A stretch of 64,000 nt of DNA from Sphyrna mokarran (lineage: Eukaryota). The notes below the pieces were generated by a model. The model ran no database searches, had not been told where the DNA came from, and was given only the letters and a program-made list of their open reading frames with translations. The stretch covers positions 40,672,001 to 40,736,000 of the forward strand of contig JAGIQG010000008.1 in assembly GCA_024679065.1 (NCBI GenBank), written 5' to 3'. Made by a program: the position numbers and the translations under genes. Within the stretch, counting starts at the first letter, position 1, and each line of letters begins with the position of its first letter. Below are positions 3,383 to 59,647 of the stretch, piece after piece.

Positions 3383-4251
3383 TTAATGTAATGAGTATTT
3401 GTTAGTTTCTGTTTTAACACGAAATTTTCTTAAAATGGCTCCCAAATATAGACTGCCAGAAGTTACAAATATACTTATGTGGAGAATACTGAGACAGATG
3501 GCAGTTATTTTAGAATCGAGGGCTTGAGATGATGTCATAAATGAACCATGACTGATATTTTGAGTGGAAACCTCATGCACCTCTGAGATGAAATTATTTT
3601 TTCTGGAATCTCTTTAATTCTTCCAATATTAGTGGCTTAGCAAATTATTTCTGCGTTGGGAAGTCAAAACCAAATGTAATCTTCAGATTAAGTCAGGTTA
3701 GAGTCCAGAGAATAATTGGACAGGGGCATGCGGATATAATTCAGATCTGTTTTCAAGTCATTCTTTCTGTCTCTTTTTCAATTATAAACACATATGTTTA
3801 AATTTGTATTTGTAACTGCCAGAGTAAATGTGCCACTCTGCAATCTCACAATTTTACCAGTGGTGACACTATACTGATTCCACAAAGATATAATTATCAT
3901 ATTACAAATTTTCATAGATAATATTTATGTGAATATAAGAATTTATGGAAAGATTGTCAAGAAGCATGAACAAATACATAGTTTTGTATATTATAGCCAC
4001 ATAACAGTATTAATTTTAACAGAAAATTGATATATTAGTATTACATACTGTTGTGTGAAAAGGATTGTTTTTCTATTCTTACTGTTGATGTCATGATAGA
4101 TGGCAGCTGTGACAATCTAAAGTTGTTACTTGATAATGTGTCACTGAAATGATAAAAGTAAGAAGTAATCACAACCAGATTGGAGTTGAATTTGCATCAG
4201 ATTATTGAGAAATAACATTAAAATGTAATCATTACTATGTAGTATATGTAC

Positions 4252-4537
4252 GAACTCAGTAAGAATTTAGCAACACCAATTTATAATCCAACCGATTTAT
4301 TTGATAGTAAAAAAGCGAGCTTTCGACTCTTGTGTCTTCAGGCAAATGCAGTGTTCTGGTCTGCAATAGCACACATCAGCAATTTGCAGACCAGAACACT
4401 GCATTTGCCTGAAGAAGACACAAGAGTCGAAAGCTCGCTTTTTTACTATCAAATAAATTGGTTGGATTATAAATTGGTGTTGCTAAATTCTTACTGAGTT
4501 CTTACCACCCCAATCCAACGCCGGCATCTGTACATCA
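4252..4537. mobile_element. Non-autonomous head-to-head PLE pseudo-LTR element (family A) with 12-bp TSD
   Basis: Inverted arms 4252-4366 and 4384-4501 (one mismatch, one 3-nt indel); 17-nt spacer; tail ccccaatccaacgccggcatctgtacatca; flanks tagtatatgtac (4240-4251) and tagtaaatgtac (4538-4549). Confidence 0.9.
4403..4438 (+). ncRNA. Minimal type-I hammerhead ribozyme motif
   Basis: CUGAAGA(4409-4415)-A-GAC-ACAAGA-GUC-GAAA-GCUC; stem I is only 2 bp in this subfamily. Confidence 0.6.
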
Positions 4538-7500
4538 TAGTAAATGTACATCATTGAAGTAATTCAATCTTGTCCATTGTTTTAACTGATCACTATAACA
4601 GATTTACACAATGATACCTTGTGTAAATCTGTAGAAAGATGTTGTCTTCTCTGACAACTCTCATTTCCATGGAAGAAATTGCAACTTAATTTCCCCAAAA
4701 TGTTCAATCTTTTTGCAGAAGAAATATAAACTACTTAATGTTCATATGGTATTGTGTTAGTAACAGTTAATTGTTTGTATATACACATTAAATAGTTCAT
4801 CCTAGCAACCTTTTACATAGCACTTGCTATTCTAATAAATGCTTAAAATAGTGAAGAAACATTGGTGAAGTTTCAATGAGTCTGTTCGAAATAGAATGAT
4901 TCTGTACAATTAACCTGGGAGGGGGTAGGTGATAGTGGATGAGAAAGCTTTCAGATAAACTAATTTGCGTAAAAGTGCACTTACCCATAAATCCTAGCTG
5001 TTAATACTTCATGTTATTCTTCTGAAATACTTAAAATAACTGACAGTCACTTTTAAAACAATTTGGCATGTGTTGAGACCTTACTGAATGAAAGAGTTCA
5101 ATAAAATTCTTCTTTACCTTTGACAGTTAAAACCTTACAATAAGGCTCATTTGCATGTGGGCGAGACTGCTATTTTGTGCTGCTTTTTTTAAATTGAGGT
5201 TTTTGTTTTCAGCCTCCAATGGCAGATATTTACATAAAACAAGGAATCCCTTGTATTCCGTTGTGTTTTAGAAACATTTAACAAGTCAGACCACATTTTT
5301 ATTGATGTTTTACAGACCAAAATGGCTACCAACAGCTTAATTTCACAGAAAGAAGAAACATCATTTGAGGCTTGAAGACTGCAGGGAATGTTTTTGTGCA
5401 AAAGATATCAAATTAGATAATGTAAGCAAGACAGAGTTTGAAATAATTATTGTAGTTTTCTTTCAGTTTTCTGCTTGGCAAGTTTGAGTTGTGGGGCAGA
5501 ATTGTCCAAGTATCCAGCTGACTCTGTCTGGAATAAAGCCATTGTTGAACAATGAAGCTGTTTGTAATTGCTTGGCTCTGTGGCTGTAAATTATTGGGTT
5601 CTTTAATTATATATTTAAATGTCATTATAACCATAAGGCCACCACTTCCTAAAACAAAAAAAGTGTTCAGCTAGAGATACCCTAGTGTTAGTGTCAATTT
5701 CAGCATATTAAGTAACCACAGGTAAGCACCTTACCTCTTTGTGTGCTGCCAGTCTTCTGTTTATTGAAAGAACCCTGGGTTAACAGATTAGCAATGTTCA
5801 AATAAAATCAAAAGAAGGTATCAGTGAAACACATATCATTGATACTTTCAGATACATACAAATGCAGAGATAAGTTGAATATTTTGTCCAAATCTGGGGA
5901 AAAGGTGGGGGGGGGGAGAATGTTTTATATGTAATGGTATTGAACATCTGTGTGCCGTTTATCATTAATGAGCTAACACAACACAAAATCCAGTCTCATT
6001 GTGTCTGTTGTCAGCCAGCTTGAATATTATGCTTCAGTTGTTTTTGAAGCCTAATTTCAAGCTGCAAGCTGTTCACTTGTAGGACAGAATTGTTAGGGTT
6101 ATCAGCCTACATTTAGGAGCTTATTTGGTGACAGCTTGCCATTCGTATGTATAAATATCAGTATAAAAAAAGACTTCTCTAAAACCAGGGAAAATAAATA
6201 ATAGATTGTCATGGAAAATTAATATGAGACATTTAATTTGTGCCCAAACCTGAAATATAATTTACAATTCGATTGATAGTGATAATGCCTTTTTAAATAT
6301 ACATGTAATATTAACCCAAAATAAACTAAAATTCTATATGAGGGGGGAGAAAGATTAGCAGCATTTTGTCCCGTATAGGAAAAATAAAGCTTTAATTTGC
6401 AGGTAATCAGGCATAGAAAGATGACGGTCAATATGCCTAGGTAATCATTTTGATTGGTGGCGATTTCCACCATTTTGCCTGTATTTGATTGAGTAATATA
6501 GTGTTTTTATCCTTATGTTAAGGAAGGCAAGAAAACTTGAATTTTGAGGTTTATGCAGATTTGTACTCTGAAAAGTTTTAGAATTGGAGTGATGGTAGTG
6601 GTTACAGAGTTCAGCAGCATCCAAACTGATTATCAGAAATTACAGAAGTCAGATCTGTCTACACTGATGTTTGTTTAATTGTTGGTAAGATGACAAGAGC
6701 ACAATAGGAATGTGATTTAAGTAATAAATCTTCCAATTTGTTTGTAAATAGACATTTGCATCTAATCTATGTCAGGCTTTGATCAGCCAGAGGGGACATT
6801 TTCAATTTTGCAGGAAGGAATAGATGTCTTCATTGCTAACAAGTCTCATTCTGTTCTATGGCTTGTCCAATTGAGAATAACCAAACCCATCTTCTTCAAA
6901 TGTTGCAGGTATTAGGGAGGAATTGGCTTCATGAGAAACCATTTGGACACAACCCCTGTAAAACTAGTAATTCATAACCAGAAGGTTATAGGAATAGTTC
7001 CCAAGACTACTGTCATGACTTCACTCAATTATTCATGATTCAACTGAACTGTTACATGGGAATGGCATGAAAATAATTTAAGGAAAGGAAGATTCCGCAT
7101 GACTAGCTTCGATCCTCAATGGCAAATCATAGAACTGGACTGATGTGGTAACAGTGAGGTCCACAGCTGGTTGACGAATGTAAGGGAGCAAATAGTCTGC
7201 AAGGACAAAAATATGGATGATGATAAATTTTCAAAACAATGGGAAAAGATTTTTTGGAATATAAGCATAAATAATAAATATCAAATACATGTTTTGCCAG
7301 GAAATAAGATGTTAAACGATTAATTCCCAAGGAATGAATTTCATGCTTAGTATAGAGCGAACATATTACAAATTAATTCCCATGATTATTCAGTTGCCAT
7401 AATCTTGTAAAATGATGATTCATTATACTGGCAAATGCCATTTTGATTTAAATTAGACTTACATAAATCACATTAAAAAATTGATGATCTTTGCTATGTT

Positions 7501-10380: not shown

Positions 10381-11200
10381 TTTAAGTGAGTGGGCGAGAG
10401 TCTGGAAGAGTACAATGTTGGTAAATCTTGAGGTCATCCATTTTGGTAAGAAAATGGACTATTATTTAAATGGTAAAATTGCAGCATGTTGTTGTGCAGA
10501 GGGACCTGGGTGTCCTTGTTCATGAATCGCAAAAAGTTGGTTCACGGGCACAGCAGATAATTAAGAAGGCAAATGGAATTTTGTTCTTCATTGCTAGAGG
10601 GATGGAGTTTAAAACTGGGAGGTTATGTTGCAATATAAGGTGCTGGTGAGGCCACACCTGGAGTAATGTGTATAGTTTTGGTCTCCTTACTTGAGAACAG
10701 ATATATTGACACTGGACGGAGTGCAGAGGAGATTCACTACGTTAATACTGGAGTTGGGGGAGTTGGCTTACGAGAAGAGAAACTGGGACAATGCTTATTG
10801 GAATTTAGAAAAATTAAGGGGGGGATCTTAAAGAAACATATAAAATTATGAAGGAAATAGATGAGATAGAAGCAGGGAGGTTGTTTTCACTGGTAGGTAA
10901 AACCAGAGCTAGGGGGTATAGCCTCAAAATAAGGGGGAGCAGATTTAGGACTGAGTTGAGAAGGACCTTCATCACTCAAAAGATTGTGAATCTGTAAAAT
11001 TCTCTGCCCACTTGAGGCTATCTCATTGAATGTTTTTAAAGCAAAGATAGATTTTTGAATAGTAAATGAATTAAGGATTATGGTGACTGGGAGGCTAAGT
11101 GGAGCTGAGTCCATGAAAAGATCAGCCATTTCTTATTGAATGGCGGAGCAGGCTTGAGGGACCAAATGGTCTACTCCTGCACCTAATTATTATGTTATAT
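10381..11200 (+). mobile_element. CR1 LINE 3' portion
   Basis: tataaggtgctggtgaggccacacctggagta (YKVLVRPHLE) and a CR1 3' UTR tail. Confidence 0.9.
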
Positions 11201-19208: not shown

Positions 19209-19327
19209 CATAGAACACTATAGCACAAACAGGCCCTTTGGCCCACAAGTTGCACAGATCATGTCCATACTGACCAGTAAAGTTTTACAACACCAATTTT
19301 AAATCCAACCGATTTATTTGATAGTAA

Positions 19328-19367
19328 ATTCGCGAGCTTTCGACTTTATAGCCTTCGTCAGGCAAAT
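19328..19367 (-). ncRNA. Intact minimal type-I hammerhead ribozyme in PLE pseudo-LTR
   Basis: AUUUGC-CUGACGA-A-GGCU-AUAA-AGUC-GAAA-GCUC^GCGAAU: 6-bp stem I, 4-bp stem II, palindromic AGCU in place of stem III. Confidence 0.85.
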
Positions 19368-19581
19368 GCAGTGTTCTGGTCTGCAATAGCACTCATATCC
19401 ACTCAGACAGTTACAGATTGCTGATTAGGATGCGAATCCTTACATCTAACCTGCTATTCAAGTGTTAAAGTGGCTAACAATGTGTGTGAAGGGAATCCTG
19501 AGCATTGGTTAGAGAATTGTGTATTTTCTCCAGACAGCACAGTAAGTGAGGTTTTTTGCTAACCCAGGCAAGTTACGGGGG

Positions 19582-20487
19582 TTACAGATAGTGTGTCATG
19601 AAGCCAAGATCCCTATTAAGACCGTCCTCATGTGTGCGGAACTTGGCTATCAGTCTCTGCTCAGCGACTCTGCGCTGTCGTGTGTCACGAAGGCCCCCTT
19701 GAAGAACATTTACCCGCAGGTCGGAGGCCGAATGCCCATGACTGCTGAAGTGTTCGCCCACAGGAAGGGAACTGTTTTGCCTGGTGATTGTTGAGCGATG
19801 CTCATTCATCCGCTGTCGTAGTGTCTGCATGGTCTCCCCAATGTACCATGCTTCGGGACATCCTTTCTTGCAACGTATTAGGTAGACAACGTTGGCCGAG
19901 TTGCAAGAGTATGTACCGTGTACCTGGTGAATGGTATCCTCACGTTTGATGATGTCGTCCATGTCTATGATCTGGCATGTCTTGCAGAGGTTGCTGTGGC
20001 AGGGTTGTGTGGTATTGTGGTCACTGTTCTCCTGAAGGTTGGGTAGTTTGCTGCGAACAATAATCTGTTTGAGGTTGTACGGTTGTCTGAAAGCAAGAAG
20101 TAGGGGGGTGGGGATGGCCCTAGCGAGATGTTCATCGTCATCAATGACACGTTGAAGACTCCGGAGAAGATGTCGTAGCTTCTCCGCTCCTGGGAAGTAC
20201 TGGACAACAAAGGGTACTCTGTCCACCTTGTCCCGTGTTCATCTTCTGAGGAGGTCAGTGCGGTTTATCGCTGTGGCACGTCGGAATTGTCGATTGATGA
20301 GTCGAGCGCCATATCCTGTTCTCACGAGGGCATCCTTCAGCGTCTGGAGGTGTCTGTCACGATCCTCCTCATCTGAGCAAATTCTGTGTATACAGAGGGC
20401 TTGTCCATAGGGAATGGCTTCTTTAATGTGTCTAGGGTGGAAGCTGGAGAAGTGGAGCATTGTGAGATTGTCTGTCGGTTTGTCTGT
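19582..20487 (-). pseudogene. PLE ORF remnant: RT C-terminus, Cys linker and GIY-YIG endonuclease
   Basis: KPTD..LHFSSFHP..KEAIPYGQ..RICS; PCHSNLCKTC; VVYLIRC..CP..YIGET..LRQRMNEH..E..LI..GLNRD. ORFs 20239-20490 and 19582-20226 are in frame, separated by one TGA. Confidence 0.92.
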
Positions 20488-22146
20488 CATACTTACCAGG
20501 CCATAGAATTATCTGTAACTCCCAATCCCATTAAATCCCATGTACTCATCCAGAAGTCTTTTAAAAGACCCTAGCAAGTTCGTCTCTACCACCACCGATA
20601 GCAGCCAATTCCACTCACTCGCCACCTCTGAGTGAAAAACGTATCCCTAACATCTCCTCTGTACTTGCTTCCCAGCACCTTAAACCTGTGTCCTCTCGTA
20701 GCGACCATTTCAGCCCTGGGAAGTAGCCTGTGAGAATCCACCCTATCTATTCCTCTCAACATTTTATAAACCTCTATTAGGTCGCCTCTCAACCTTCGTC
20801 TCTCCAGGGAGAAGAGACCTAGATCCTTCAACCTATCATCATAAGGCATGCCTCCCAATCCAGGCAACATCCTTGTAAATCTCCTCTGCACCCTCTCAAT
20901 AGCTTCCACATCCTTCTTGTAGTGAAGCGACCAGAACTGCACCCAGTACTCCAAGTGTGGTCTGACAAGGGTCTTATAATGTTGTGGCATTATTTGTAGA
21001 TAAGTTTGGCTATGCTATCTGCACACTCCACAGTACATTCTTTCGCTTGAATAGCTTATAGCCACCAACATTCAAGAATAATAGGCACCTTCTGCACAAG
21101 GTGCTGAAAGTTTCCTCATGCCTGTAGTATTATGTATAATAGATAACTGGGAGTAATGACAAAGTTAGAATGTAATTAACCAAAAGATCCAATAGTTGGC
21201 ATATTTAATTCCTCATTTTCATGCCAACATTATATAATTTTCTTCTTGTTTTTGTTTCTTCCTGATAGCTAAGTACTTTGGAATTGATAGGTGATTGTTG
21301 CATTCCATGCAGAGTTGCATGTTTTGCTTTGTATCTGTCAGAACCTTCTGTATGAAAATGTTTCAAAATTCAAATATTTCAACTCAGAGTATTATATGAA
21401 GCAATGTTTTTTACAGCTACACATCTTGAATTAGTTTGATAATTACAGTGAAATGTCTAGACACATCACAATGTCAGGAACCACACTGATGTTACCTCCA
21501 AAGGTGTCCCAATTTGAAACTTTTGTTCGTGGTGGTGTGTAATTTTTTGAAATATTGTGAGAAGTCATGTAAAAACCCAGAAGGAACCAGAACTATCATT
21601 GTGTAACAATTACTAAAGAAGATTAATTAATTAACATAAAAGAAAAATACACATAAAAATAGAGTACAGTACACTATGACATAACTACACATCAGATATA
21701 TAGAAATTACCTCTTGTTCCAAAATATATCTATAGTCCCTTCCCTTCCCTTTCTCAAACAGCATCCAAATTAATAAATCAAATCCAGCTTACATTTACCA
21801 CTCCATACAGGCTGATGATCATCTGGATAAATTTCTTTTCCTTGTCCAGTGATGATGTTTAAGCTACTTCTACAAAAGTTTTCTCACAATGTCTTGACTC
21901 TAAGACATAGCTGCAACACTTCAATTTAGCATGCTTAAAGTGTTGAAACAAATTACAAATTTTTCACTTTGTAATGTAAGCAAATAAGGTTGTGACAATT
22001 ATAATTCTACTCTGCTTAGAAGATCAAATGTCTTTACATTATGAAATTCTAATTCACCTTCCACCTTTGCTTTTGATGTAGTTTTTTCTTAACTTGTTCT
22101 TTTCTCCATCCCTCTGACAGTGTTGATGTACTCTTGGTTATGAGGA

Positions 22147-27680: not shown

Positions 27681-30241
27681 AATGTCCTCTCTATAAAGTT
27701 GAGGTTATCCAAAACTCAGCTGCCCATGTTCTTACCTACACTACGTACCATTCACTTTCCCACCCTTCTCGCTGACTTGTATTGGTTCCATGTAAAGGAA
27801 AGTATTGATTTTTAAAGTTTCATCCCTGTTTTCAATTCCCTCCATACATCTTTATTTCTGTAATCTTTCAGTCCCATACACCTCAGATCAGTCATCATCT
27901 AGTTCAGGCTTCTAGAGTATCCCCAGTTTTAATTCTGTGCCAACTGTTACCTCAGCCCTAACTCTGGAATTCTTTCCCTACACTAATACACCTTTTTTCT
28001 TGCTTTCCTCTTTTGTAACACATTTACCTATTGGATCAAGTTTTTTGTCTAATATAGTTCAATATAATTTTATTTTATAATGCTCTTGTGAAATGTCATA
28101 GATGTTCTGTTCATTAAAGGCACTGTATAAACATGTTGACATCTTTTTCTGTTTTACTGATGTTCTTAACTTGGTTCTCTTCTATTATTTGTTCTAAGCT
28201 TCATTTATGCTCTGCTGTTCATCTTTCTTTTCAAAATATTCTCACCACATTGCGGTTGGGACTTGACATACAATATCCAAATGTAAATTGCTGTTCCCTA
28301 TTACATTGAAACAGTGGAACTTCTGCCTACTATGTATTGTCCTTTTTCAATCCTTAGGCTTTTAAAAGCCAAATTTTGTATCATCAGATCACAAATTTCT
28401 TCAGTCTTAATAGGTTCTGCACAGTGTGTTTTAGCTTATCAATTGAGTTTTCAATAGTAAGTAAAATCTTACTAAATATATAAACATCTATACATAGCAA
28501 TAATACTATTATTCTACCCTCCATTACTATACTTTGATAATATTGCAATAATCTGTTCCATGTTTCATCATCATTTCAAATCTTTGAACTGTCATTAACT
28601 TGTTTTATTTAAACTGAATTGTAAAAATAATTATATGTATTAGAGATTAATAACGGCATAAAATCCACCAAGGGCTTTGATCTTCATTTATACTGTAAGA
28701 TTCATACTCTACTCTCAAATAGCTTCTGGATTTCACTCACTTCACTGGTCTCCGAATTCAGACAACAGCTCATTGATGCTTCATATTAATTCCACCCTTC
28801 TTAATTTGTCATTACTCCACCATGACACCTTCCTATTATCACCATCTATTTCGTATTATATGTTTTCTGTCATATTTTAATGTATCCTAATTTCTACCTA
28901 ACTCGACATATGTAACTTGAGCTCTCTCTGTTCTCATTCACATTGGATATTTTGGTGTTGCTTTGGATTAGAGCCTATTCAATTTATTTCCAGTTTTGCC
29001 TTTCTCTTTAATATTTTTTCTCTTTCCCCCTCCTTGACTGTCTTCTAATGTCATGCCTCCTTTCACTCCCACTCTGTCAGGTATTCTACCTTCACAATTC
29101 ACAACCTCAACTCTTCAGTACTACTTGACCTTCTCTGATTTCTTGTTACTATTCTAAGCTTGACTCCCTGTTAGACAACATTACAACTTCCCTCCATGGC
29201 TTTCATGGCATCTTTTAAAGGGCTTATCAAGATACTCAGTAGTAAGCCCAATTTCACCATCCCACTTGTCAACTTGCCCTTCTGTTGCGCATGCTTGAGA
29301 CTAATCTTGCCAATCACTTTCTCATCTAAGTCATCACTTCCATTGCCAATCCTGTAGTCTCTATTAGCAGATCAACTTTCACTAATTCTTGATACATCTA
29401 CTTCCAAAACATTTGATCACTTTGGAACAAGACCCTTGCCATCTATTAATGTGTTGTAGGTGGTTGTATTGGCATCATGTCCTTAATAGACACTTGGCTG
29501 AGGGCTGATGATATCTCCCTCCTTAATGAGACCCCTCAACTGGCAACATCTTCCACCACTAATTCCATCAAGATAGTAATGGTATGTTTGGTCTGACCTG
29601 TACTTCTTTGACAATTCTCCTCTTTTGAACTTCTCATATTGTTCCACCTCTCTTATCTTTTTCAGAATCATCATGCAGTCTTGTCCTCCCAGGTATGATG
29701 AAAGTTTTATCACAGATTTTTCTTTGCTGCTTTCCTTCAGCCTTAGTAATTCCAATCTCCATCTCAACTCACCATTTCCTTGCTCCTCTGAGTTATCTAC
29801 TCTCTTACCCTCTCTATGTGTAAGATCCTTAAGCTATATCTTTAGCCATCCTTGACCTTGGTACTTTGTGGTATTTCGCTACTCTCGTAGTTTCAGTCAC
29901 AGATCAGGCCATATTTGATAATTTCCTTGTATTGGTCACCACCCACATCCACCTTTCACGCTCCAACCATACCTGTTTCTGTGTTTGTTCCTGGAAAAAA
30001 CTATCTTCTAATTCACTTATAGCTGCACTTTCAAAATCCAAATTATTTAGCCTTTGACTTTCTATTCACTCCAACTACTGATGCTCAAGTGCATCATCTT
30101 CACTTCAGTCGCAGTCCCTAACAAAAGCATTACTCTCTCTCAACCTGGCTGTTCCCTCGGAGAGCCCTTATCTCTAGTCACTGAATCCAAGAGGCACAGA
30201 CTTGAAGGAATATAATACACAACTGGCTTAGCCATACACTG

Positions 30242-30498
30242 TGGAGATGCTGGTGTTGGAGAGGGATAAACACAGTAAGAAATCTCACAACACCATGTTA
30301 AAGTCTAATAGGTTTATTTGGTAGCAAATGCCATTAGCTTTCGGCGCGGTGCTCCTTTGTCAGGAGAATGTCTTTATATGCCCTGTTTGTAAACAGAACT
30401 CCCAGTCACATGCTGAAGGAGCAGTGCTCCAAAAGCTAGTGGTGTTTGCTACCAAATAAACCTGTCGGATTTTAACCTGGTGTTGTGAGACTTCTTAC
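30242..30498. mobile_element. Head-to-head PLE pseudo-LTR element (family A2) with 13-bp TSD and decayed hammerhead cores
   Basis: Arms ~30274-30365 and ~30405-30499; tail on the left; tagccatacactg at 30229-30241 and 30499-30511. Confidence 0.85.
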
Positions 30499-30739
30499 TA
30501 GCCATACACTGCTAGACGTGGCTTAAAACACTACCAGGCCCTACTTATTCCACTAAGACATCTGACTACTCCAGAATCATCTTGCGATGCAAGAATAACC
30601 CACGGCTTATTTTCTTGACTGTACGTCATCATCTTAAACCTCTCCTTCCTGTCCTCTCAACCCTTGCCTCAAATTACAGTTGTGAGGAGCTCATTGATTT
30701 CTTTGACAATATAATTGAGACAATCTGATTGTAATGACT

Positions 30740-33775: not shown

Positions 33776-33879
33776 TCTGAGGGGGTAATTGGGATTTCAA
33801 ACCTTGCCTGTTTTAAACAAAAAAGTTATTAGTCTCTAACTACATTGTAACAAGGGCTTGAAATGATCATAACATGAAG

Positions 33880-42530: not shown

Positions 42531-42734
42531 CATCTTCACCACTTGCCTTTCAACCTATCTTGTATCATCTGGAAATGTGACAATAATACATTCATTTCCC
42601 TCATCCAAATCACTAACATATATTGTAAATAATTGAGGCCCCAGTACTGAACCCTGTGGCACTCCACTCATTACAGGTTGTTACCCTGAAAATTCCCCTC
42701 TTACTCCAACTCTCTGCCTTCTTTCAGTTTGATA

Positions 42735-42868
42735 AGATCTCTCACAACACCAAATTAAAATCCAACAGATATATTTGGTAATAGAAGTCATAAGCTTTCG
42801 GAGCACAACCCCTTCATTAGGTGAGTGGGAGTTGTGTTCAAACAAGGTATATATAGACATAAACTCAA
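42735..42868 (-). mobile_element. PLE pseudo-LTR (family A2), single arm, hammerhead core with G5A change
   Basis: Minus strand CAC-CUAAUGA-A-GGGGU-UGU-GCUCC-GAAA-GCUU. Confidence 0.75.
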
Positions 42869-42869
42869 A

Positions 42870-43182
42870 CTTCACAGCTCCACAGGGTCCTGTGTTCAAT
42901 TCCTGGCTCAGGTCAGTATCTGTGTGGAGTTTGCACATTCTCTTCGTGTCTGCATGGGTTTCCTCTAGGTACTCTGGTTTCCTTCCACAGTCCAAAGATG
43001 TGCAGGTTAGGTTGATTGGCCATGTTAAAAAATTGCCCCTTAGTGTCCAGGGATGTGTAGGTTAGAGGGATTAGTGGATATAATATGTCGAGATATGGGA
43101 GTAGGGCCTAGGTGGGATTGTGTTCGGTGCAGACTCGATGGGTCAAAGGGCTTGTTTCTGCACTGTAGGATTCTGTGTTCTA
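42870..43182 (+). mobile_element. HE1-type V-SINE, 5'-clipped
   Basis: ctgtgtggagtttgcacattctc..cacagtccaaagatgtgcaggttaggttgattggcc..ctgtaggattct. Confidence 0.9.
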
Positions 43183-43850: not shown

Positions 43851-44630
43851 CCCATCCTGCCCCATTCTACTTCATCTAAAATATTACTATAGTTATAAAG
43901 ATTCTGTCTATACTATACAGGCCAAATATTCAAATGTTTATTTTGCCTCATTCTATGCTTTTCATTCTGTTCATGTAACAATTGGTTTGATTACTCTGCT
44001 ACACCTGTAATTTTGTTTTGTACTATATTCTCCAGTATCACATAACTTACTGTTTTTCTTTGACGATGTATGTGTAGGCATTCCCTTTTCTTTTTTTTTG
44101 TATGATTTTTAATTAGTTCAGTAACCTGCAATTCTGGAGTTGCAATTATATAACTGGTTTGGAACAGTACAATTGACCTAATATTTTTACTTAACTGAAT
44201 CGTTTAATTTGAAATGTTCTGTTGTTTATTGCAGGAAACTCTTGAAGTTTTAACAGCTTTGGCTCATTAGTGTGACTCTGACAGCCCGCTCCATCTGTCA
44301 ATGATTTTAAAAGTTGCCAACTAAACTGAAAGCCAAGAGCAGACATTTGTTGTTGTATTTAGTTGTTGCAAATGCAGAGCTGAGTCTTTGGTAAACTGGA
44401 TGGGGGAAGAGAAAAAAACTGTTCATGTGTTTTAAGTGTCACTGTGAAAGGGGAAACATTTGGTTGCTATAACACTATAACACTAATAGTTGTATTGTAA
44501 ATACATTGACTCAGATAATGTGTGCTTTAGCAAAATTAAACTATATTTGACCTAGGATTTCTGACAGCGATATTTTTGCTGTACTGTGTGAAGAGTTGAA
44601 AGCATGTAAGCATAACTTGATTTAGTAATT

Positions 44631-44797
44631 TAAAAGCAAATTACTCTGGATGCTGGAATGTGAAACAAAAACAGAAAATCCTGGAAAATCTCAGCAGGTC
44701 TGACAGCATCTGTGGAGAGAGAATACACCTAATGTTTTGAGTCTGGTTGACCCTTCATCAGAACTGATGAAAGGTCATTCAGACTTGAATTGTTAGT
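44631..44797. mobile_element. Head-to-head family-B pLTR element with two abutting hammerhead cores and 14-bp TSD
   Basis: Centre gacccttcatcag-aa-ctgatgaaaggtc; flanks ttgatttagtaatt (44617-44630) and ttgattgagtaatt (44798-44811). Confidence 0.85.
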
Positions 44798-46074
44798 TTG
44801 ATTGAGTAATTAGTTGATTTGTGTTATGATATATCTATTGAGGGTTGTCATCTTTACTAGGTCCAGAACAGAAGGGAAGGCAGAAGAGGAATAAGGCGGT
44901 AGATGAGAATGATGGCTTTAGCTGTGATTACTTTACCTTAATGCTGAAAATGAAAATTCTAGAACTAATGTCAGTGCAACAGAGAAAATATACTCTAACT
45001 TAAGCAAAAATAAACTTTTATTAACTGGGTCATGTTGTGGATCCTTTGGACAGCACATTTAAAGACTGGACTTCTAATTAGTGTAACAATGTTAAGTAAT
45101 TTGCAGTTGAGGTTGCTGCTTCGAAGTCTACCAGTGAAATTATTTTCCTGGACTGCTGATTATACTGTTGAATAAATGAGGGTAAAGAGGTCACAATCCA
45201 TCATTAAACTGTGATGCATGAAAACCCATTGTTTATTCAGGTCAATTTGTTTTCATCATGACAGCGTCAAACCATAATAATCAGAGTAAGGTCAATAAAA
45301 TGATTAAGCACAAATGAGTGTATCCTATTTAATAGAAAGAAGATCACATTTCATGGCAAATGTCAGGGTTCATGGAATTATTATCCGTGAGCAAGATTCT
45401 TTTTTTAAAAAACACTATTATTCTGCTTTTTGATAAAGTTCAATACCTCAATACTTTTGTGATATACTCTAATTATCTAATCCTTTCTTATTGTTCAGTC
45501 TTGTTCTTTTATTTCTTGTTTTTCTATTTATCCTTATGTGTGAGAGATGCATGCAAACAAAGCTGCTGAGTAATGAAACCAATTGAAGTGCATGCAGAGG
45601 CTGAGCAAAATATAAAAATAAGTTATGAGATAATGAATTCGGGCACGCATCAAGTACAAGGAACGAAATAGGATATACAGAGGGATTTGTGTGTGGAGAT
45701 GGAAGGATCCAGAATAAGGCAGAGCAGAGGAAAAGTTAAAGAAAGCTAATAAAAACTGAATGAGGAATCAGAATTGCTGAAAATTCTAGAATGTGGCACA
45801 ATATTTTGGAAACTCTGCAAAATTGGTTCCACTAAGAAATGATTGCGTGGAATTTTAAATTATAAAGCTGTTCTGTCTCAAATAATTGTTAGGTGACCTA
45901 CCTAAACTTAGTGTACTTTAAGCACCGGAATTAGACAAATAATTGCATGGATAATGGCCAAAATTCAGAGGTATATTCATTTTTTCTAAAATAACATAAT
46001 TTCTAGAGACCCTTCAGTACTCTACAAGGATATAAATTGTATTGAGTCTGCAAAATAAGAATTTTGAAATAGAA

Positions 46075-47662: not shown

Positions 47663-49637
47663 GTTCATATGGTGCAAATGAAGGAACACAAACATCAAAA
47701 CTGCCAGCAGTAGTGGAAAAGTGAGTCTGGATATCTTGGAATTTTGCTTAATTAATTACCTTTCCTGCAGAAACTTTCCTTATATAAATTAAACAAATAG
47801 CTAGTTGCCTAAATTCAGAATTGGCAATGTGAACTCAGCACAGTTTTGATATGCCATAGGTATCAATTTATGTTCAGTCGTGTCATTTAATTTGTTTCAT
47901 TGTGCCTTGAGGAGTTAGGGTACTCATTACCCTAAAATCTACTTGCATGGTTATGCAACCTAAGAATCTAATAATTGAAATTACCTTCTGATTTCATAAA
48001 GTCAAGTTATTATAGCACAGGCCTTTCAGTCCATCATCCATGCTGACTCTCTAAAAAGCGGTATAGGCAGTTCTATTATCTGACTCTTTTCCTATTGCCC
48101 CTGAAAGTTATTTGGATCTATGAGTCTTTGCGATTTAAACATCTCTCTTCCTTCAATCTCTCCATAAGTAAACTGAGTTAACAATAGATAAGAGTTGGAT
48201 TGTAAACTATTTTATTCCACAGTAGGTAAAACACTGAGATTTATGATGCAATGGTGCAGAAGTAAAGAACAGAGAAGCACTTGCCCTCTATGGCAGAACA
48301 TCTTATTCAAATTAAAAGAACATTCTGTTTTTTTTCCAGGAGAGTCCTTTTGCAGAATTCTATTTAAGATTGACTCCTTGTCTGATTAAGCAATCTGAGA
48401 GGCTGTACAAATTCAAGGTACAAAATTTGCTTCAGAGTAAGCAAGCATGGCTGCTTGTCAGGGTTGTTAGAATAACTTTCAATCACAAATTTTAGTTAAC
48501 ACTGATCTTGTGTATTGATTCACAATGGGTAAGGACACTGGCAAGTTAATGGGGGCGATTCTCCCATCCTGCTGCATAGTTTTTATAGTGCAGCGGGCCA
48601 GAGAACTCAAGTGCCAGCCGATTTGTGTTGGGTGGCCAGGTCTCCCCGCCTAAGCTTTTCCGGTTAAGGACTCACATTGAAAATCAGGATAAGGATATTA
48701 GCATGCGTTAACATCTAATGAGCAGGTCTACAACTAGAATCCCCATCCCTGGTGGTGTCCCCTCTCCCTGCCACGACATTATGCTGGTGGTTTTTACAAC
48801 TGCTCTATAAAAGTCAAGACCTGGCATGGCAGCGTTGAACAGGATTAAGGAGGTATGTGCTGTGGAGCTGCAGCCTCCGGAATGCAGGGGAGGTTGGAGG
48901 CAGGGACTGGAAAATTTCTGCTTGTTGTGGGAAAGTTTCTGGAGAACTGGAAGTGCTGTCCCCAGGCCCAGGGATGTTTTATGTAGTCTCTGTGTGGTGA
49001 GGTGGAGCCCTTTACTGAGTGATGATCAGACCACTATCTGCTGCCAGTGAGCTACTGCTCTGGGATGGAGCCATTTATTGAGTGCTGGTCAAGCTGCAGC
49101 CTCAGTCACTGGGCTGTTCCACTGTACTGGTTATGGGGTGTGGTGAGGATTGCACTGAGTGCTGGAATTTTGGGGACAGGAAGTGCACCATGTGCTGCTT
49201 GAGAGCTCATCAATTCAGGTAGGTGGTACTTGAAGCAGGGGTGCTTTCGTTAACATAGGCACTCATGCTGCATGTACTCTGCAGTAAATGGGAGCCCATC
49301 TTGTGATAATTAGGAATCTGTCCCTGCCCCATGTCCCTGATCTGCAATGTATGCCTGGAAGGGAACGCTGTAGTTACACTCATGGCAATGGCTCAAGGGA
49401 GCACAATGGCCACGCCTGCATACTAACCTGTGTTTTCTCTCTCCCTGCCTGCTGTGTTAAACGATGCCAATGGCAGGCAATCGAATCAGGTGACACATGG
49501 CACCACAGGTGTAGAGTTGCCAGCATCCACAAGTGGGAGTACTGGTCCCAGTGAGGGATAAGGTGTTGGTGCTGCGATTGTTGCAAGCAATGACATGTAT
49601 CTATCAATCGCTCTCTCTCTAATACCCATTGCGTAGA

Positions 49638-51020
49638 ATGGATCTCAGTCTTATCGATCTAGAGCTGGCCATTGTGGTGGCGGTTGAGAAGGAGGAGGTG
49701 GCTCAGAAGGTGGAGGGCATAGGTAGGCCAGGGGGCTGCCACTGATGGCCATGAGGTGGCTCCTGAAAGGATGGCTAGGGGTAGGAGAATGCAGTCTAGG
49801 CAGTATCAGAACAGGACATCACTTCAGGGCTTATCAGAGGTGATGTGCCATCACTGTGAACATAGCAGGCAAGGATAGCATGTAACTTGTTGTGCGAGCA
49901 TGACCATTATGCTCCTTTGAACCATTGCCATGAGTGCAACTATAGCATTCCCTTCTAGACATGTATTGCAGGTCAGGGACACGGTGCTGGGATAGACTCC
50001 TAATTATCTCAAGATGGGTTCTCATTTACTGCAGAGTACATGCAGCATGAGTATCCATCTAATATCACCAGTGTGAACTGCTCTAACAACTAGCACCTCA
50101 GGAGGAGAGGTCACCTGCTCCCACTAGAAGTTTTACGCAACAGGATCATTTCACGCACCCAGTGGCAACCTATGTGGAATCTTGCAGGCCTCAGTCCACA
50201 GATGCATTGCCGGGTGACAGATGCCTTGAACGCTTACCAACATATCCATTTTGATATTGGAGAGGGTCAGCAGGAGGCTGGCACTGCAGGATTTATAATC
50301 CAACCGATTTATTTGATAGTAAAAAAGCGAGCTTTCAACACTCTGTGTCTTCCTCAGGCAAATGCAGTGTTGCCTGAGGAAGACACAGAGTGTTGAAAGC
50401 TCGCTTTTTTACTATCAAATAAATCGGTTGGATTATAAATTGGTGTTGCTAAATTCTTACTGAGTTCTTACCACCCCAATCCAATGCCGGCATCTGTATA
50501 TCATGACTGCAGGATTTGCCACTATTGCAGGGATGCCTTATGTGCAGGGGGCAGTGGATAGTTCCCCATGATGTGATGGGCAACCATTTAATAACAGAAA
50601 GGGATTCAAATTGTATGTGACCGTCAGATGAACATTGCAAGTCTGTGCACGCCACTCAGGTTACATGTAAGATTATTTGTGTTATGATACAACTTTTGTC
50701 CTACAAAAGCAATTAGTATTGGCTTACAATTACAGTGTTAAGACTAATTGCTTTTTTTATGGGAATTCTATGTGCTGTCGTGGCCGAACATCTCTGGGCT
50801 CGTCAAAGACCAGCATAGACTACCAGGATAACTCATGAGGACAATGGGTACTTGCTGCTATGGTGAGGCCCACACTGCCATCCAGTCCATAGTGGACTGT
50901 TGCATAGGCCTGCTGAAGATGCAGTTCCGCTGCCAGTGCCACTCTGGGGGTGCCCTCCAGTATGAACCTATGTGGGTGTCATGCATAATTGTACGTTGCA
51001 CCCCGCACAACACAGCGCAT
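49638..51020 (+). pseudogene. Harbinger DDE transposase (HARBI1-like), disrupted
   Basis: FYATGSFH..GNLCGI.QASVHRCI; FATIAGMPYVQGAVD; FNNRKGF; YGEAH..IGLLKMQFRC..SGGALQYEP..IIV..HN (ORF 50835-51158). Confidence 0.88.
50295..50505. mobile_element. Head-to-head family-A pLTR element inserted in the transposase, 12-bp TSD
   Basis: Perfect 71-bp arms 50291-50361 and 50370-50440; actgcaggattt at 50283-50294 and 50506-50517; both arms carry CUGAGGA-A-GACAC-AGA-GUGUU-GAAA-GCUC. Confidence 0.92.
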
Positions 51021-55194: not shown

Positions 55195-57418
55195 TATTAA
55201 TCCTATCTACATCCCTCATTCTACCAATGAAGTTCTTTAAAATAACAATTTCCAGTTTACTAGCCTTAACAAACTCCTTTTCTCCATGGACATCCAATCT
55301 CTCTATTCCTCCATCCACCACACAGTGGGAGCTCACTGCTTTTTCATTAAATGGACACTCACCCAGTCTCCATCCACTAGCACCCTTCTCAAGTTGGCTA
55401 AACGTCTTCTTACATTGAACAGTTTCTTATTTAACTCCTCTAATTTCCTCACAAATGAGGTCTCTTTAGGGAACCCTTATGGGTTGTAAATATGCCTGAA
55501 TTTTTGTAGAATATGTGGAACATTTCTTGTTCCAGTTCTACTCAGATTCTTTCCTTAAACCTTATTTCTCTGATACTTCTGGGTGGCGCAGTAAGGAGTA
55601 ACCGTGGGTTAGCACCACGCATCTTAGTGCCAGGGATCCAGGTTTGATTCCCAGTTTGGGTCACTGTCTGTTATAGAATTTGCACATTCTCCTTTGTCTG
55701 CATGGGTTTTCTCTGGGTGCTCTCATTTCCTCCCACAGACCAAAGGCATGCGCATTAGGTGGATTGGCCATGCTATATTGCTCCTTAGTGTCAGGTGGAC
55801 TAGCTCGGATAAATGCATGCGGTTATGAGGATAGCGCCTGAATGGGATTGTGGTTGGTGCAGACTTGATGGACCGAATGGCTGCCTCCTGCACCATAGGA
55901 TTCTATGATACTTTGACTGTATTAGTGCTGCTTTCTCCTCATTGTCAAGGACTGGAAAATTTAATCATTTTTACTTCCAATTTACACCTTATTCCCACTT
56001 TCACTTGGTTCATCTCTGACTCTTCCCTTCCTGAATGTCCCTGTCTCAATTTCAGGCTCTGAACGCATATTCACTATAAGTCCATTGATTTTTTTTTTTA
56101 TCCAGCTACTATACTTCATCACACTCTGAAGAACTCTGCTCCGTTTTCTCAATTTCTTCCACCTTGTCACATCTATTCTGATGACACAAATCTCCTTACC
56201 AGTGTTCCACTCCATCTTCCTGATTTCTCAGCTGAAAATTCCCCCTCCACTATGGTCAACAGGGCACTTGACCATATCCGTTTCACTTTACACACTTCTA
56301 ATCTCCCTCTTTCTCCTGTTTCCAGAATCACAATAGGGAGTCCTGTCCTCACTTCCCATCCATCAGTATCCAATCGCAATGATCATCCTATGCCATTTCC
56401 TGCACCTCAGGCATGATGTCCCCATTAAACACATCTTCTCCACCCACCCCTTTGGACATTGCAAAGGTACTGTTCCTTCCGTAATGCTCTGTGTCCAGTC
56501 TTTGATTGCTCCCATTACCCCATCCCACAGCACCTTTCATCTATTTTCATAGGTCTAAGGCCCCAAATACTGTTTTCATGTGAAACAGCAATCTGTGTAT
56601 TTCTTTCAATTTTGTATATTATAGTCGCTGCTTATGATGCTGTTTACTCTATACTGGAGGTGCCAAAATTATGGTGGAACACTGTAATTCATATTGTAAG
56701 CATAACTAAGTTTTCAATTATCTGTCATGTTAATTCTTTTCTCCACTTCCACTTTACAAGAGACTTAGGACAGAGAAGTTAATATTTCAATGAAGCTGAA
56801 TGTAAACTCACCTTTAATTAGGCACTTTACAACCTTCTGAACTCAGCTTTAAAGTAAACAAATCAAAATATTGTAACCTCTGCCCCCAATTTGTTATTTC
56901 TTTCCCCAATTTGGGATTTTTTGAATTTTGAATGGCAGCTGTTCATAACTGCCATTCACGCCTTCTTTAGCTATGTCTTCTGTTTATAAAAGCAAATTAC
57001 TGTGGATGCTGGAATCTGAAAGAAAAGCAAAAAGTGCTAGAAAATCTCAACAGATCTGACAACATCTGTAGAAAGAGAACAGCGTGAACATTTCAAGTCT
57101 GGATGACTGTCATTTTTTGTTTCTTTACTTTTAACGTTTGCCTTTTGCCGTGCATTATTAACCTTTTTGACATTTAGTCTTTCCTGTCTTCTATCATTCA
57201 CTGAGCTTTTATTTCTTTTTCCTCCTTTCTCCATTTCCCTGCCTCTATATTTGCTTAAAACCTATTAATTAAAACTCTAACTTTTTCCAGTTCTGATGAA
57301 AGATCAGTAACCCGATCAACTGATTTGTGTCTTCACAGATTCTGCCAGACCACTGAGTTTTTCCAGTATTTTCTGATTTTGTTTCAAATTTTCAGCATCT
57401 GATGTATTTTACTCTTCT
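55195..57418 (+). mobile_element. Decayed PLE (family B): RT region to pLTR
   Basis: MDIQSLYSSIH (ORF 55286); pLTR with ctgatgaaag at 57293; inverted pLTR piece at 56987-57110. Confidence 0.75.
55580..55910 (+). mobile_element. HE1-type V-SINE nested in PLE
   Basis: gggtggcgcagt..gggttagcac..ggtttgattccc..taggattctatgat. Confidence 0.85.
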
Positions 57419-58287
57419 ACAATTATACTGCCCCTTTCATTGCAATACAATGTGAATTTTACATAACACATTGGTTAACTAAGTGCATGTCCTCATCTAG
57501 GATCCAAGTGTACAAAAATTGAGTAATGTGAATCTTCTGCAAAAGTCACGCTCACACCATTTTTAGTTTGCACCAGCTGTGGGACAATTCCAGTTATGTG
57601 TAAAACAAGTGGATCAGTTGGAACTTGGAATTTATTCATATTGGAACTTATTCACAGTAGGATGATGTGGCAAATCTCACATATGCCCAACTGACATGGG
57701 AAGCTGTGTTGTGTGGATGTCACAGAATCACAGAATTGTTATAGCACAAGTGGGAAGCCACTTGGCCAATCATATCTGTGCTGGTTCCCCAGAGGGGCAA
57801 GTTATCTTGTGCCAGTCCCTCATCTTCTCCAGATGACCTTGCCCATTTTTCTTTTCAGACAACAATCTAATTCCATCATAATAATCAAGAGTCATCCAGA
57901 CTTGAAACCTTGGCTCTATTGTCTTTTCACAGATGGAGTCAGACCTGCTGAGATTTTCCAACATTTTCTGTTTTTGTTTCAGATTCCAGCATCCACAGTA
58001 ATTTGTTTTATCTTAGTTTTTAACTAATTGCCATTTCTCTTCCAGGAATGTCAAGCCTGAAGAAGTACGGCTCTTCTTTCTGACAAGATTTCCATTTGTT
58101 TCTTTTGCTCTGTCCAATTCATTGCTTTCCATTTCTGTTCTGGTGCTTGACAAGGTATTTACCAAAACTCATTTTCACAGCCATATTGCCTTCCTCAGTG
58201 ACTGTCTCTATCTCTGACTTACCCCACATGGATTCCAACAGAAGTTCCATCCCTCACCTTTTGAATCCACCTGGGATTACAGATATC

Positions 58288-58509
58288 AGTAAAGTTTTGC
58301 AACACCAATTTAAAATCCAACCAATTTATTTGATAGTAAATCCACGAGCTTTCGACACTATGTTGTGCCTTCGTCAGGCAAATGCAGTGTTCTGATCTGC
58401 AGAGGCACTCATATCCACACAGACAGTTACATACTGCTGGTTGGATTTTAAATTGGTGTTGCAAAACTTTACTGAGTTTACCCCAGTCCAACGCCGGCAT
58501 CTCTACATC
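58288..58509. mobile_element. Asymmetric head-to-head family-A pLTR element with perfect 12-bp TSD
   Basis: attacagatatc at 58276-58287 and 58510-58521; arms ~58287-58322 and ~58439-58474; tail ccccagtccaacgccggcatctctacatc. Confidence 0.92.
58340..58383 (-). ncRNA. Intact minimal type-I hammerhead ribozyme
   Basis: AUUUGC-CUGACGA-A-GGCAC-AACAUA-GUGUC-GAAA-GCUC^GUGGAU; stem I is kept with G-U pairs. Confidence 0.8.
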
Positions 58510-59647
58510 ATTACAGATATCTCCAGGATTTGCAATGTTCCTCAGACTGCTGTTTTTGCCACATACTGCCATTGGCACATACTTGATATCTCTCTCCAGC
58601 AGCACCAACTCTCACTAAGCTCTCCTTGTCCCCAGTTTCATTTCATTCTTTGTCTTATCTGACATCTTAACAATAATTTTTTTTTCTCTTCCTTTCAGGT
58701 ATTAAGAAACGTAAACTCCAACAACTCCCTCTTAGGAGTCGCTTTCCTGTCCCATCCCTTGGATCCCATCCCTTCTAACCCCAGCCTTGGCCATATATTC
58801 ACCATATCCTCCGACCTTCCCCTCTGTAAAGCCGGACATGCTGTACCCAGCAAAGGACTTGGCTTACACATGTCCTGACCTCAACCAATTCTAAAAACAA
58901 CTGGATGCTAAACTTTTCTTTCGCCGCCTTTATCTCCATGTTCTCTTCTTTAGGTAGGAGTCCTCTCCCCCATTCAGCCGATCCTTTCATCCACCTCCAG
59001 CATTCTCCCTCCACCTGGACCCATCCTCTGGCGTCTTACCTGCTCTTGATCTTTACATTGAACATTCTTGGTTTGACATTGGCCATTGCAATTTCTCTCT
59101 CCTCTCACCTACCCAAATCTGTCGCCTTCTGAACTTGCTGCACTTTGCTCACTCGGGTCCAATTCTGACTTTATCATCAAACCTGCTGACAAGGTTAATG
59201 CTTTTGTTGCCTGGTGTATTGATCTCTACCTCACAGAGGCTGAGAGCTAACTCTCGGACATTTTCTCCTACCTTCCCCTGGAATATAACTCTACCACTGA
59301 ACATCAAGCTACTCTCTCCAGGACTGTCACTGATCTTATCTCTGGAGGTCTTTTCTCCACAGCTTCTAACTTCATAGTTTCCCCAGCCGTGACAACCCAT
59401 GCTTGTCTCCTTCCCAAAATTCACAAACAGGCTGTCCTGACAGGTCCATTATGTTCTTGCCCCACTGAACTAAATTTTTTCTATCTTGATTTCATTCTCT
59501 TTCCTCTTATCCAGTCCCTTCCCAACTACATCACTGAATTCTCTGATGTCTTTTGCCATATCAACAAATGCCAGTTCCCTGGCCTAAATCATCACCTCCT
59601 CACCATGGATATCCAATCCCTCTACACCTTCATTCACACTCAGATGG

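What the first reader, a model, noticed from the sequence alone, without database searches (positions are those of the whole stretch)
4240..58521. Family of tiny ORF-less, head-to-head hammerhead-ribozyme retroelements with 12-14 bp TSDs
Seen: five separate 170-290 bp insertions (4252, 30242, 44631, 50295, 58288) consist only of two PLE pseudo-LTR segments in inverted orientation. Each is flanked by a 12-14 bp direct repeat and carries CUGANGA...GAAA cores, some of them mutated. They belong to three sequence families, and the inversion point differs in every copy. Established: Penelope-like elements carry minimal type-I hammerheads in their pLTRs and can form inverted pLTRs. Inference: these are discrete products of one integration route, possibly a retrozyme/MITE-like RNA system mobilised by PLE RT and GIY-YIG. 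Inverted pLTRs are known; what may be undescribed is their abundance and consistent TSD length in a shark.
Basis: partly seen in the sequence, partly recalled or inferred. Interest (0 to 1): 0.8.

Follow-up and report, generated by a model that had tools for sequence, protein, structure and literature searches.

The report
Short inverted Penelope retrotransposon insertions
These five short palindromes in a shark-like genome are truncated insertions of ordinary Penelope-type retrotransposons rather than a new ribozyme RNA family, although their lopsided ends hint that the enzyme copies its RNA from both sides of the cut.

Summary
Five 167-286 bp head-to-head pLTR palindromes lie between 12-14 bp direct repeats (0 of 300 random pairs score as high). 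For one, the empty site restores a Harbinger transposase frame with exactly one repeat copy.

The retrozyme/MITE reading does not hold. It has the same pLTR family and the same 12-bp TSD but no inversion. Only 4 of 10 arms have an intact hammerhead, the cores are on opposite strands, and no arm starts at the cleavage site. An inverted 5'-truncated copy with a TSD and a 30-40 bp tail at one end is the published PLE structure.

What remains of interest is a polarity. In 4 of 4 family-1/2 palindromes one arm has the tail, the other lacks it, and the tail-less arm runs further 5'. Three of the four tail-less ends lie within 6 nt of where non-inverted copies end. This fits priming from both nicks at the two RT start sites found in vitro and argues against fold-back. 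One or two older family-3 cases disagree. Genome-wide abundance could not be tested.

The parts
4240..4251 (+). E1 left TSD (12 bp, 1 mismatch to the right copy at 4538-4549)
4252..4380 (-). E1 tail-less pLTR arm; 3-nt deletion breaks the hammerhead; about 9 nt at the centre unassigned
4384..4537 (+). E1 tailed pLTR arm; intact minimal hammerhead (C3 at 4409); tail about 4504-4537
4538..4549 (+). E1 right TSD
19266..19277 (+). TSD of the 5'-truncated coding PLE (12 bp, 1 mismatch to 20488-20499)
19278..20487 (-). 5'-truncated Neptune/Nematis-type PLE, not inverted: end of RT, CX4CxxC linker, GIY-YIG, 3' UTR, tail-less family-1 pLTR with intact hammerhead (C3 at 19361). Same pLTR family as E1, E4, E5
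19582..20238 (-). open 218-aa stretch with GIY-YIG domain (Pfam E 4.8e-05); homology to a Heptranchias PLE ORF runs 20496-19585 at 82%
20488..20499 (+). second TSD copy of the coding PLE
30229..30241 (+). E2 left TSD (13 bp, identical to 30499-30511)
30242..30368 (-). E2 tailed family-2 arm; hammerhead core mutated at G8
30364..30498 (+). E2 tail-less family-2 arm, reaching further 5' through a TATA-like stretch; core mutated
30499..30511 (+). E2 right TSD
42733..42878 (-). solo tail-less family-2 pLTR, not inverted, no TSD found
44617..44630 (+). E3 left TSD (14 bp, 1 mismatch to 44798-44811)
44631..44767 (-). E3 tailed family-3 arm; G12 of the core mutated
44764..44797 (+). E3 short arm (34 nt), ending about 2 nt past the predicted hammerhead cleavage site; 3-nt overlap with the other arm
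44798..44811 (+). E3 right TSD
50283..50294 (+). E4 left TSD (12 bp, identical to 50506-50517), inside a decayed Harbinger (HARBI1-like) transposase ORF
50295..50371 (-). E4 tail-less arm, ending about 25 nt short of the usual site at a 4-nt match to the target; intact core
50370..50505 (+). E4 tailed arm; intact core (C3 at 50374); 2-nt overlap at the centre
50506..50517 (+). E4 right TSD
56986..57416 (.). old family-3 inverted pair with both arms tailed, arms 68 of 98 identical, no TSD; may be two events
57882..60506 (+). decayed family-3 PLE that hosts E5: tailed 5' pLTR running into the ORF, RT remains (59086-60234, 42% to a Mobula protein), endonuclease region missing, tail-less 3' pLTR
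58276..58287 (+). E5 left TSD (12 bp, identical to 58510-58521)
58288..58446 (-). E5 tail-less arm, 159 nt, 87% identical to the 3' end of the coding PLE; intact core (C3 at 58377)
58438..58509 (+). E5 tailed arm, 72 nt, no hammerhead
58510..58521 (+). E5 right TSD

Best explanation
Each palindrome is a single, dead-on-arrival insertion of an autonomous Neptune-type PLE family in which both cDNAs are very short. SHOWN: the arms are pLTR sequence of coding PLEs present in the window; the target is duplicated by 12-14 bp; both arms point their RNA 3' ends at the target; one arm has the roughly 35-nt tail and the other does not; the arms overlap by 2 or more nt at the centre where this can be read. 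INFERRED: the RT-GIY-YIG protein nicks both strands 12-13 nt apart, leaving two 3'-OH ends. One end primes on sense RNA at the inner (tail-less) start site and the other at the outer (tail) site, helped by 0-4 nt of pairing. The two short cDNAs are joined head to head by microhomology and filled in, which duplicates the target. When the second end is not used for priming, an ordinary 5'-truncated copy with the same TSD results (19278-20487). The hammerheads are passengers of the pLTR and do not delimit the unit. I put 0.85 on 'ordinary PLE insertion products' and about 0.6 on two-ended priming as the route.
For: Same pLTR and a 12-bp TSD on a non-inverted coding copy. Empty-site test at E4: one TSD copy scores best against 8 of 10 named shark HARBI1-like proteins, ungapped across the site in 7 of 10; summed scores 385/493/431 for 0/1/2 copies. 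Exactly one tail in 4 of 4 family-1/2 palindromes, and in all 4 the tail-less arm reaches further 5'. Tail-less ends at +64, +57 and +59 nt from the predicted cleavage site (E1, E5, E2) match non-inverted copies at +55 and +58; tailed ends lie at about +92 to +102 (counted by hand). Family 3 shows the same two end classes. Arms within an element are more alike than arms of different elements: E4 71/71, E5 38/38, E1 114/118, against 84/89 for E1 vs E4. In vitro a Poseidon PLE cleaves and extends both strands, starts at two adjacent internal sites that bracket the tail, uses uncleaved RNA and is predicted to be a dimer (PMC11167929).
Against: n is 4. Each of the two polarity rules has a chance of 1 in 16 under a 50:50 null. 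E4's tail-less end is at +33, about 25 nt early. In E3 the tailed arm is the one reaching further 5' (by about 6 nt) and the other arm stops at +2, which fits fold-back. The pair at 56986-57416 has two tails. The in vitro paper saw no difference in start site between strands, and its element is from another clade. E2 arms differ at 18 of 92 positions (6 at CpG-type dinucleotides) despite a perfect 13-bp TSD, so its arms may come from two RNAs. Arm identity can also come from later gene conversion. The E5 empty-site test is weak (9 and 21 of 500 shuffles reach the score).
Confidence: 0.65

Rival explanations
1. Self-priming or fold-back: one cDNA, or an antisense RNA as proposed for Adineta PLEs, folds back at a short palindrome and copies itself; the hairpin is then integrated and one end is trimmed by the endonuclease to leave a single tail.
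For: Published model (PMC3846280 Discussion); PMC8557442 ascribes the tail to endonuclease resolution. Short overlaps at the centres of E3, E4 and E5 could be fold-back seeds. E3 has the polarity it predicts. Arms are nearly identical in young copies.
Against: In simple fold-back the arm that carries the loop must also contain everything in the copied arm. In E1, E2, E4 and E5 the loop-carrying arm lacks the tail that the other arm has, so an extra trimming step at a defined site is needed. Junctions are not at one fixed palindrome among E1, E4 and E5.
Confidence: 0.2
2. One reading: preformed palindromes are a non-autonomous family that is transcribed or processed as a unit (retrozyme- or MITE-like) and re-mobilised in trans by PLE proteins.
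For: PLE pLTRs can mobilise other sequence in trans (PMC3846280). Inverted loci are common here: 4 of 6 family-1/2 loci and 3 of 8 family-3 loci. E4 could be a deletion derivative of an E1-like unit via a 2-nt overlap.
Against: No two of the five share a junction or both ends. Cores are on opposite strands and are paired away in the three elements folded. No arm starts at the cleavage site. 6 of 10 arms lack an intact core. An RT copying a palindromic transcript has no evident reason to stop at the inner priming site.
Confidence: 0.1
3. DNA-transposon MITEs, later inverted duplication of solo pLTRs, or chimeric-read assembly artefacts.
For: Near-perfect hairpins. An unrelated 649-nt, 99% inverted duplication lies at 13925-15751, so such events or artefacts occur in this window.
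Against: Each arm holds sequence the other lacks, so neither can be a copy of the other. TSDs enclose both arms. Termini are asymmetric. The sequence is PLE pLTR. A transposase relic is restored by removing E4 plus one repeat copy.
Confidence: 0.05

Closest known systems
Inverted-pLTR insertions of EN+ PLEs (Drosophila virilis Penelope, Adineta vaga Pen2/Pen3, Neptune, Naiad; PMC3846280, PMC8557442, PMC2377424)
   Same: Head-to-head inverted 5'-truncated copy, overlap at the junction, 30-40 bp tail at one end only, TSD around the whole unit, minimal hammerhead in the pLTR.
   Different: Here both arms are short, so no ORF is left. TSDs are 12-14 bp against 8-10 bp in the Adineta examples read.
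Paired minimal hammerheads on opposite strands in Schistosoma mansoni (PMC4209133)
   Same: [quoted passage not shown]
   Different: In the parts read, that paper gives no TSDs, tails or junctions; different host and PLE family.
Poseidon element of Anolis carolinensis in vitro (PMC11167929)
   Same: Two RT start sites bracketing the tail, both strands cut and extended, uncleaved RNA as template.
   Different: Poseidon clade, whereas the family here has the CX2-5CxxC linker of Neptune/Nematis. The parts read do not link the two sites to inverted insertions ('inverted' occurs once in the paper, for a blocking dT).
Non-LTR retrozymes (PMC7229834; bioRxiv 10.64898/2026.07.22.740005)
   Same: Short, non-coding, type-I hammerhead, related to PLE pLTRs, 150-450 bp.
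   Different: Retrozymes are head-to-tail tandem repeats with same-strand ribozymes that release unit RNAs and circles; these are inverted pairs not bounded by cleavage sites.
L1 twin priming (recalled; no paper on it was read)
   Same: Both nicks prime, the cDNAs are joined by microhomology, and a 5' inversion sits inside a TSD.
   Different: L1 arms cover different parts of the RNA; here both arms cover the same pLTR, giving a palindrome, and the second priming site is fixed.

Membership tests
EN+ Penelope-like elements (insertion products) | pLTR sequence belongs to an element encoding PLE RT and C-terminal GIY-YIG | tested here: met
   E1, E4, E5 arms 82-94% identical to the 3' end of 19278-20487, which encodes GIY-YIG; E3 family flanks the RT relic at 57882-60506. 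For E2's family only 77-80% local matches to family 1; no family-2 ORF in the window.
EN+ Penelope-like elements (insertion products) | variable 5' truncation, with an inverted 5'-truncated copy joined head to head | tested here: met
EN+ Penelope-like elements (insertion products) | optional 30-40 bp tail, often at one end only | tested here: met
   5 of 5 elements have one tailed arm; E3's other arm ends far earlier than the usual site
EN+ Penelope-like elements (insertion products) | target-site duplication | tested here: met
   with null; empty-site test for E4; weak for E5
EN+ Penelope-like elements (insertion products) | minimal type-I hammerhead with extra nucleotide after A9 and palindromic helix III | tested here: met
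   6 descriptor sites in the window, 0-2 in 100 shuffles; helix II pairs with two-sided changes across 7 copies. Intact in only 4 of 10 arms.
Neptune clade | CX2-5CxxC linker upstream of GIY-YIG (shared with Nematis, absent in Penelope/Poseidon) | tested here: met
   motif present in the window ORF and shark homologues; definition from PMC8557442
Neptune clade | RT phylogeny groups with Neptune rather than Nematis | not tested
   no reference RT set at hand
Non-LTR retrozymes | tandem, same-strand units each with an intact hammerhead | tested here: not met
   inverted pairs, at most one sense core per strand
Non-LTR retrozymes | unit bounded by cleavage sites | tested here: not met
   0 of 10 arms start at the predicted site; E3's short arm ends about 2 nt past it
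Non-LTR retrozymes | expressed as unit-length linear and circular RNAs; self-cleavage | not testable with these tools
   no RNA data or bench assay
MITE of a DNA transposon | symmetric, fixed terminal inverted repeats abutting the TSD, uniform size | tested here: not met
   33-65 nt extra on one end in E1, E2, E4, E5; ends and sizes differ within family 1
MITE of a DNA transposon | many near-identical copies genome-wide | not testable with these tools

The most novel reading that the evidence does not exclude
These minimal palindromes record the general PLE integration reaction. A dimeric RT-endonuclease primes both nicks on one mRNA, one subunit at the tail-less site of the 3' pLTR and the other at the tail site, which in a master copy lies at the 5' pLTR/ORF junction, so that this cDNA runs off near the RNA's 5' end. 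That single rule would explain the inverted pLTR, the one-sided tail and the short tailed arm across PLEs, and shark genomes would hold enough clean copies to prove it.
Probability: 0.35. Interest if true: 0.6.

Novelty: new member of a known kind. Interest (0 to 1): 0.3.

Why it matters
As objects these are ordinary PLE debris, relevant to repeat annotation: such hairpins score against miRNA models and look like MITEs. Their value is as a test set. How PLEs form inverted pLTRs and the one-sided tail is described as unresolved (PMC8557442), and the two published leads (antisense self-priming; two internal start sites in vitro) predict different arm polarity. Short copies with clean TSDs let that be counted directly in a shark assembly.

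Tried and rejected
Rfam scan: no hammerhead among 12 matches; taken as a limit of the models for minimal cores (inference), not as absence. TSD search found no repeat scoring above the null range at 6 of 6 other loci tested (33871, 56986, 42733, 1081, 60407, 337). A homologue search with the family-3 RT stretch gave 0 of 114 candidates; a second gave 13 proteins of 214-425 aa, and of the 4 I aligned to the window none reached 5' of 59086, so E5's empty site could be tested only against distant N-termini, with a weak result. Empty-site reading frames at E1, E2 and E3 gave no test: no homologues were fetched; E2's flanks look like a decayed L2-type ORF by recall only. Upstream-extension alignments for family-3 copies were noisy, so the apparent clustering of their 5' ends just upstream of the ribozyme core rests on reading the alignment. 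The 3' stem-loop around the two end sites is conserved in 4 arms but has 0 of 13 pairs with two-sided changes, and single folds were not significant (z -0.3 to -2.0). Pfam on 10 further open frames gave nothing; no host gene was identified. Searches for Penelope with twin priming (3 papers, none on PLE mechanism by title or abstract start; not read), with both strands/template switch (0 papers) and with shark terms (listings only, no PLE-structure paper evident) found no description of two-ended priming or of shark palindromes; subscription papers (Arkhipova 2006, Evgen'ev and Arkhipova 2005) and Repbase/Dfam entries were not seen. No genome-wide, orthologous-site or RNA check was possible: no eukaryotic genome collection was available, the metagenome and viral collections stayed unchecked, and the bacterial/archaeal genome collection was not scanned.
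Full report
VERDICT. The five elements are real insertions, but they are short products of ordinary Penelope-like elements (PLEs), not a separate ribozyme RNA system. One feature, the polarity of their arms, bears on an open mechanistic question.

1. OBSERVATION. Between the flanking repeats lie E1 4252-4537, E2 30242-30498, E3 44631-44797, E4 50295-50505 and E5 58288-58509. The repeats are 12 bp with 1 mismatch, 13/0, 14/1, 12/0 and 12/0; 0 of 300 random position pairs scored as high as the weakest of them. The arms are inverted with sense 5' ends in the middle. E1, E2 and E4 fold as long hairpins (z -34, -14, -21); E3 and E5 were not folded whole. Rfam found no hammerhead among 12 matches. 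My own minimal descriptor found 6 sites in the window, against 0 in 79, 1 in 19 and 2 in 2 of 100 shuffles. Four of the six are in the elements (E1 right, both E4 arms, E5 left), so 4 of 10 arms are intact. Across 7 family-1/2 copies helix II keeps its pairs through two-sided changes, with an extra A after the CUGANGA box, as described for PLE minimal hammerheads (PMC4209133, parts 1-2 of 4 read).

2. A 1210-bp PLE fragment lies on the minus strand at 19278-20487. It encodes a GIY-YIG domain with a CX4CxxC linker, the mark of Neptune/Nematis (PMC8557442 passages), and is 82-87% identical to Mustelus and Heptranchias proteins. Its pLTR matches E1, E4 and E5 at 82-94%. It has a 12-bp TSD with 1 mismatch and no inversion. 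So the TSD length belongs to the family's enzyme, not to the palindromes (inference). A decayed family-3 PLE spans 57882-60506, with a tailed 5' pLTR running into the ORF, RT remains and a tail-less 3' pLTR; E5 is inserted in it. HMMs built from window arms give 10 family-1/2 hits in 6 loci, 4 inverted, and 12 family-3 hits in 8 loci, 3 inverted. Older inverted pairs at 33869-34086 and 56986-57416 have no detectable TSD.

3. TRUE INSERTIONS. E4 interrupts a Harbinger transposase relic. I tested 10 of the 110 hits, all named shark proteins. Joining the flanks in silico with one repeat copy scored best in 8 of 10 and aligned without gaps across the site in 7 of 10; two gave no alignment there and one had a gap. 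Summed scores were 385, 493 and 431 for 0, 1 and 2 copies. For E5 one copy also scored best against 2 of 2 distant PLE N-termini, but weakly (9 and 21 of 500 shuffles). E1-E3 could not be tested this way.

4. ANATOMY. Positions below are relative to the predicted cleavage site and were counted by hand. Tail-less arms: E1 from about -70 to +64, E4 -43 to +33, E5 -101 to +57, E2 -71 to +59. Tailed arms: E1 -53 to +100, E4 -33 to +102, E5 about +21 to +93, E2 -36 to +92. The two non-inverted copies end at +55 and about +58. So 4 of 4 have one tail, in 4 of 4 the tail-less arm reaches further 5', and 3 of 4 tail-less ends lie within 6 nt of the non-inverted ends. Each 4-of-4 pattern has a chance of 1 in 16 under a 50:50 null. 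The old pair at 33869 follows the same pattern. Against it: in E3 the tailed arm reaches about 6 nt further 5' and the other arm stops at +2, and 56986-57416 has two tails (arms 68 of 98 identical, possibly two events). Tail-less ends share 0, 4, 2, 1 and 3 nt with the target (E1, E4, E5, E2, coding copy); of three tailed ends tried one gave 2 nt and two returned no value. Centres overlap by 2 nt in E4, 3 nt in E3 and at least 2 nt in E5; E2 and E1 are uncertain. Arm identity is 71/71 (E4), 38/38 (E5), 114/118 (E1), 74/92 (E2) and 25/34 (E3).

5. MECHANISM. Both arms point their RNA 3' ends at the target, as expected if each 3'-OH of a 12-13 nt staggered cut primed reverse transcription of sense RNA and the two cDNAs were joined by microhomology (inference). 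A purified Anolis PLE protein cuts and extends both strands, starts at two adjacent internal sites bracketing the tail, needs no ribozyme cleavage and is predicted to be a dimer (PMC11167929, parts 1-2 of 4; supplement text had no hits for 5 terms and figures are not held). Simple fold-back requires the loop-carrying arm to contain all of the copied arm, which fails in 4 of 4 family-1/2 elements; it needs an added trimming step. The published proposal is self-priming on antisense RNA (PMC3846280 Discussion). Two versions of two-ended priming remain: both sites of one pLTR with strand displacement, or the two pLTRs of one mRNA, where the tail is the start of the ORF side (PMC3846280; PMC2377424 passages; and the 57882 copy here). 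The window cannot separate them.

6. COMPARISON. An inverted 5'-truncated copy, a tail at one end and an 8-10 bp TSD are described as the typical Penelope structure, also in flies and fish (PMC3846280 passages, part 2 and Discussion; PMC8557442 passages; PMC8969392 passages and supplement passages). Paired minimal hammerheads 100-700 bp apart on opposite strands were reported in Schistosoma. Non-LTR retrozymes are tandem repeats with same-strand ribozymes (PMC7229834 passages; bioRxiv 10.64898/2026.07.22.740005 parts 1-3 of 5, supplements not seen), and PLE hammerheads likely cleave as dimers (PMC6765202 passages). These elements fail the tandem and cleavage-boundary tests, and the symmetric-terminus test for MITEs. 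L1 twin priming is a recalled analogy.

7. NOVELTY. New members of a known kind. Ten searches showed no paper on such palindromes in sharks or on two-ended priming by PLEs, but subscription papers and repeat databases were not searched, so absence from print is not established. Abundance rests on one 64-kb window. Interest 0.3; 0.6 if the polarity rule holds genome-wide (probability about 0.35 for the one-mRNA, two-pLTR version).

Noticed in passing
window 13925-14573 and 15103-15751: 649-nt arms, 99% complementary, 529 nt apart, not PLE sequence; the inner junction has a short palindromic simple repeat (15075-15104). A recent inverted duplication or an assembly artefact.
   Followed up: partly
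window 44795-44797: E3's short arm ends about 2 nt past the predicted hammerhead cleavage site, as if it were copied from the 5' cleavage product. One case; could be chance.
   Followed up: partly
window 337, 1081, 33869, 44631, 46074, 56986, 57882 (family-3 copies): The 5' ends of many family-3 copies, including the long one at 57882, appear to cluster just upstream of the hammerhead core, suggesting a transcription start or RT stop there. Read from the alignment; the quantitative check was noisy.
   Followed up: partly
window 30366-30385 and 42845-42865: TATA-like stretch about 40-45 nt upstream of the core in family-2 pLTRs; E2's tailed arm stops near where a start site would be expected.
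   Followed up: no
window 58005-58050: Pyrimidine tract ending in AG just after the tail of the family-3 5' pLTR, resembling an intron acceptor; PLE introns are known.
   Followed up: no
window 55202-56491: Further decayed PLE ORF pieces (31-52% identity to named ray proteins) with no pLTR hit next to them.
   Followed up: no
window 49261-49420 and 49893-50052: 160-nt inverted repeat, 86% complementary, at the 5' side of the Harbinger relic that hosts E4.
   Followed up: no
window 33501-33670, 39495-39803, 42871-43184, 55608-55912: Dispersed SINE-like repeat at 71-76% identity; by recall it resembles the shark HE1/V-SINE. The solo family-2 pLTR at 42733-42878 abuts one copy.
   Followed up: no
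window 10686-11195, 20586-21014, 38209-38826, 39914-40243: CR1/L2-like LINE 3' fragments (label recalled). The coding PLE's right TSD adjoins the one at 20500-21014.
   Followed up: no
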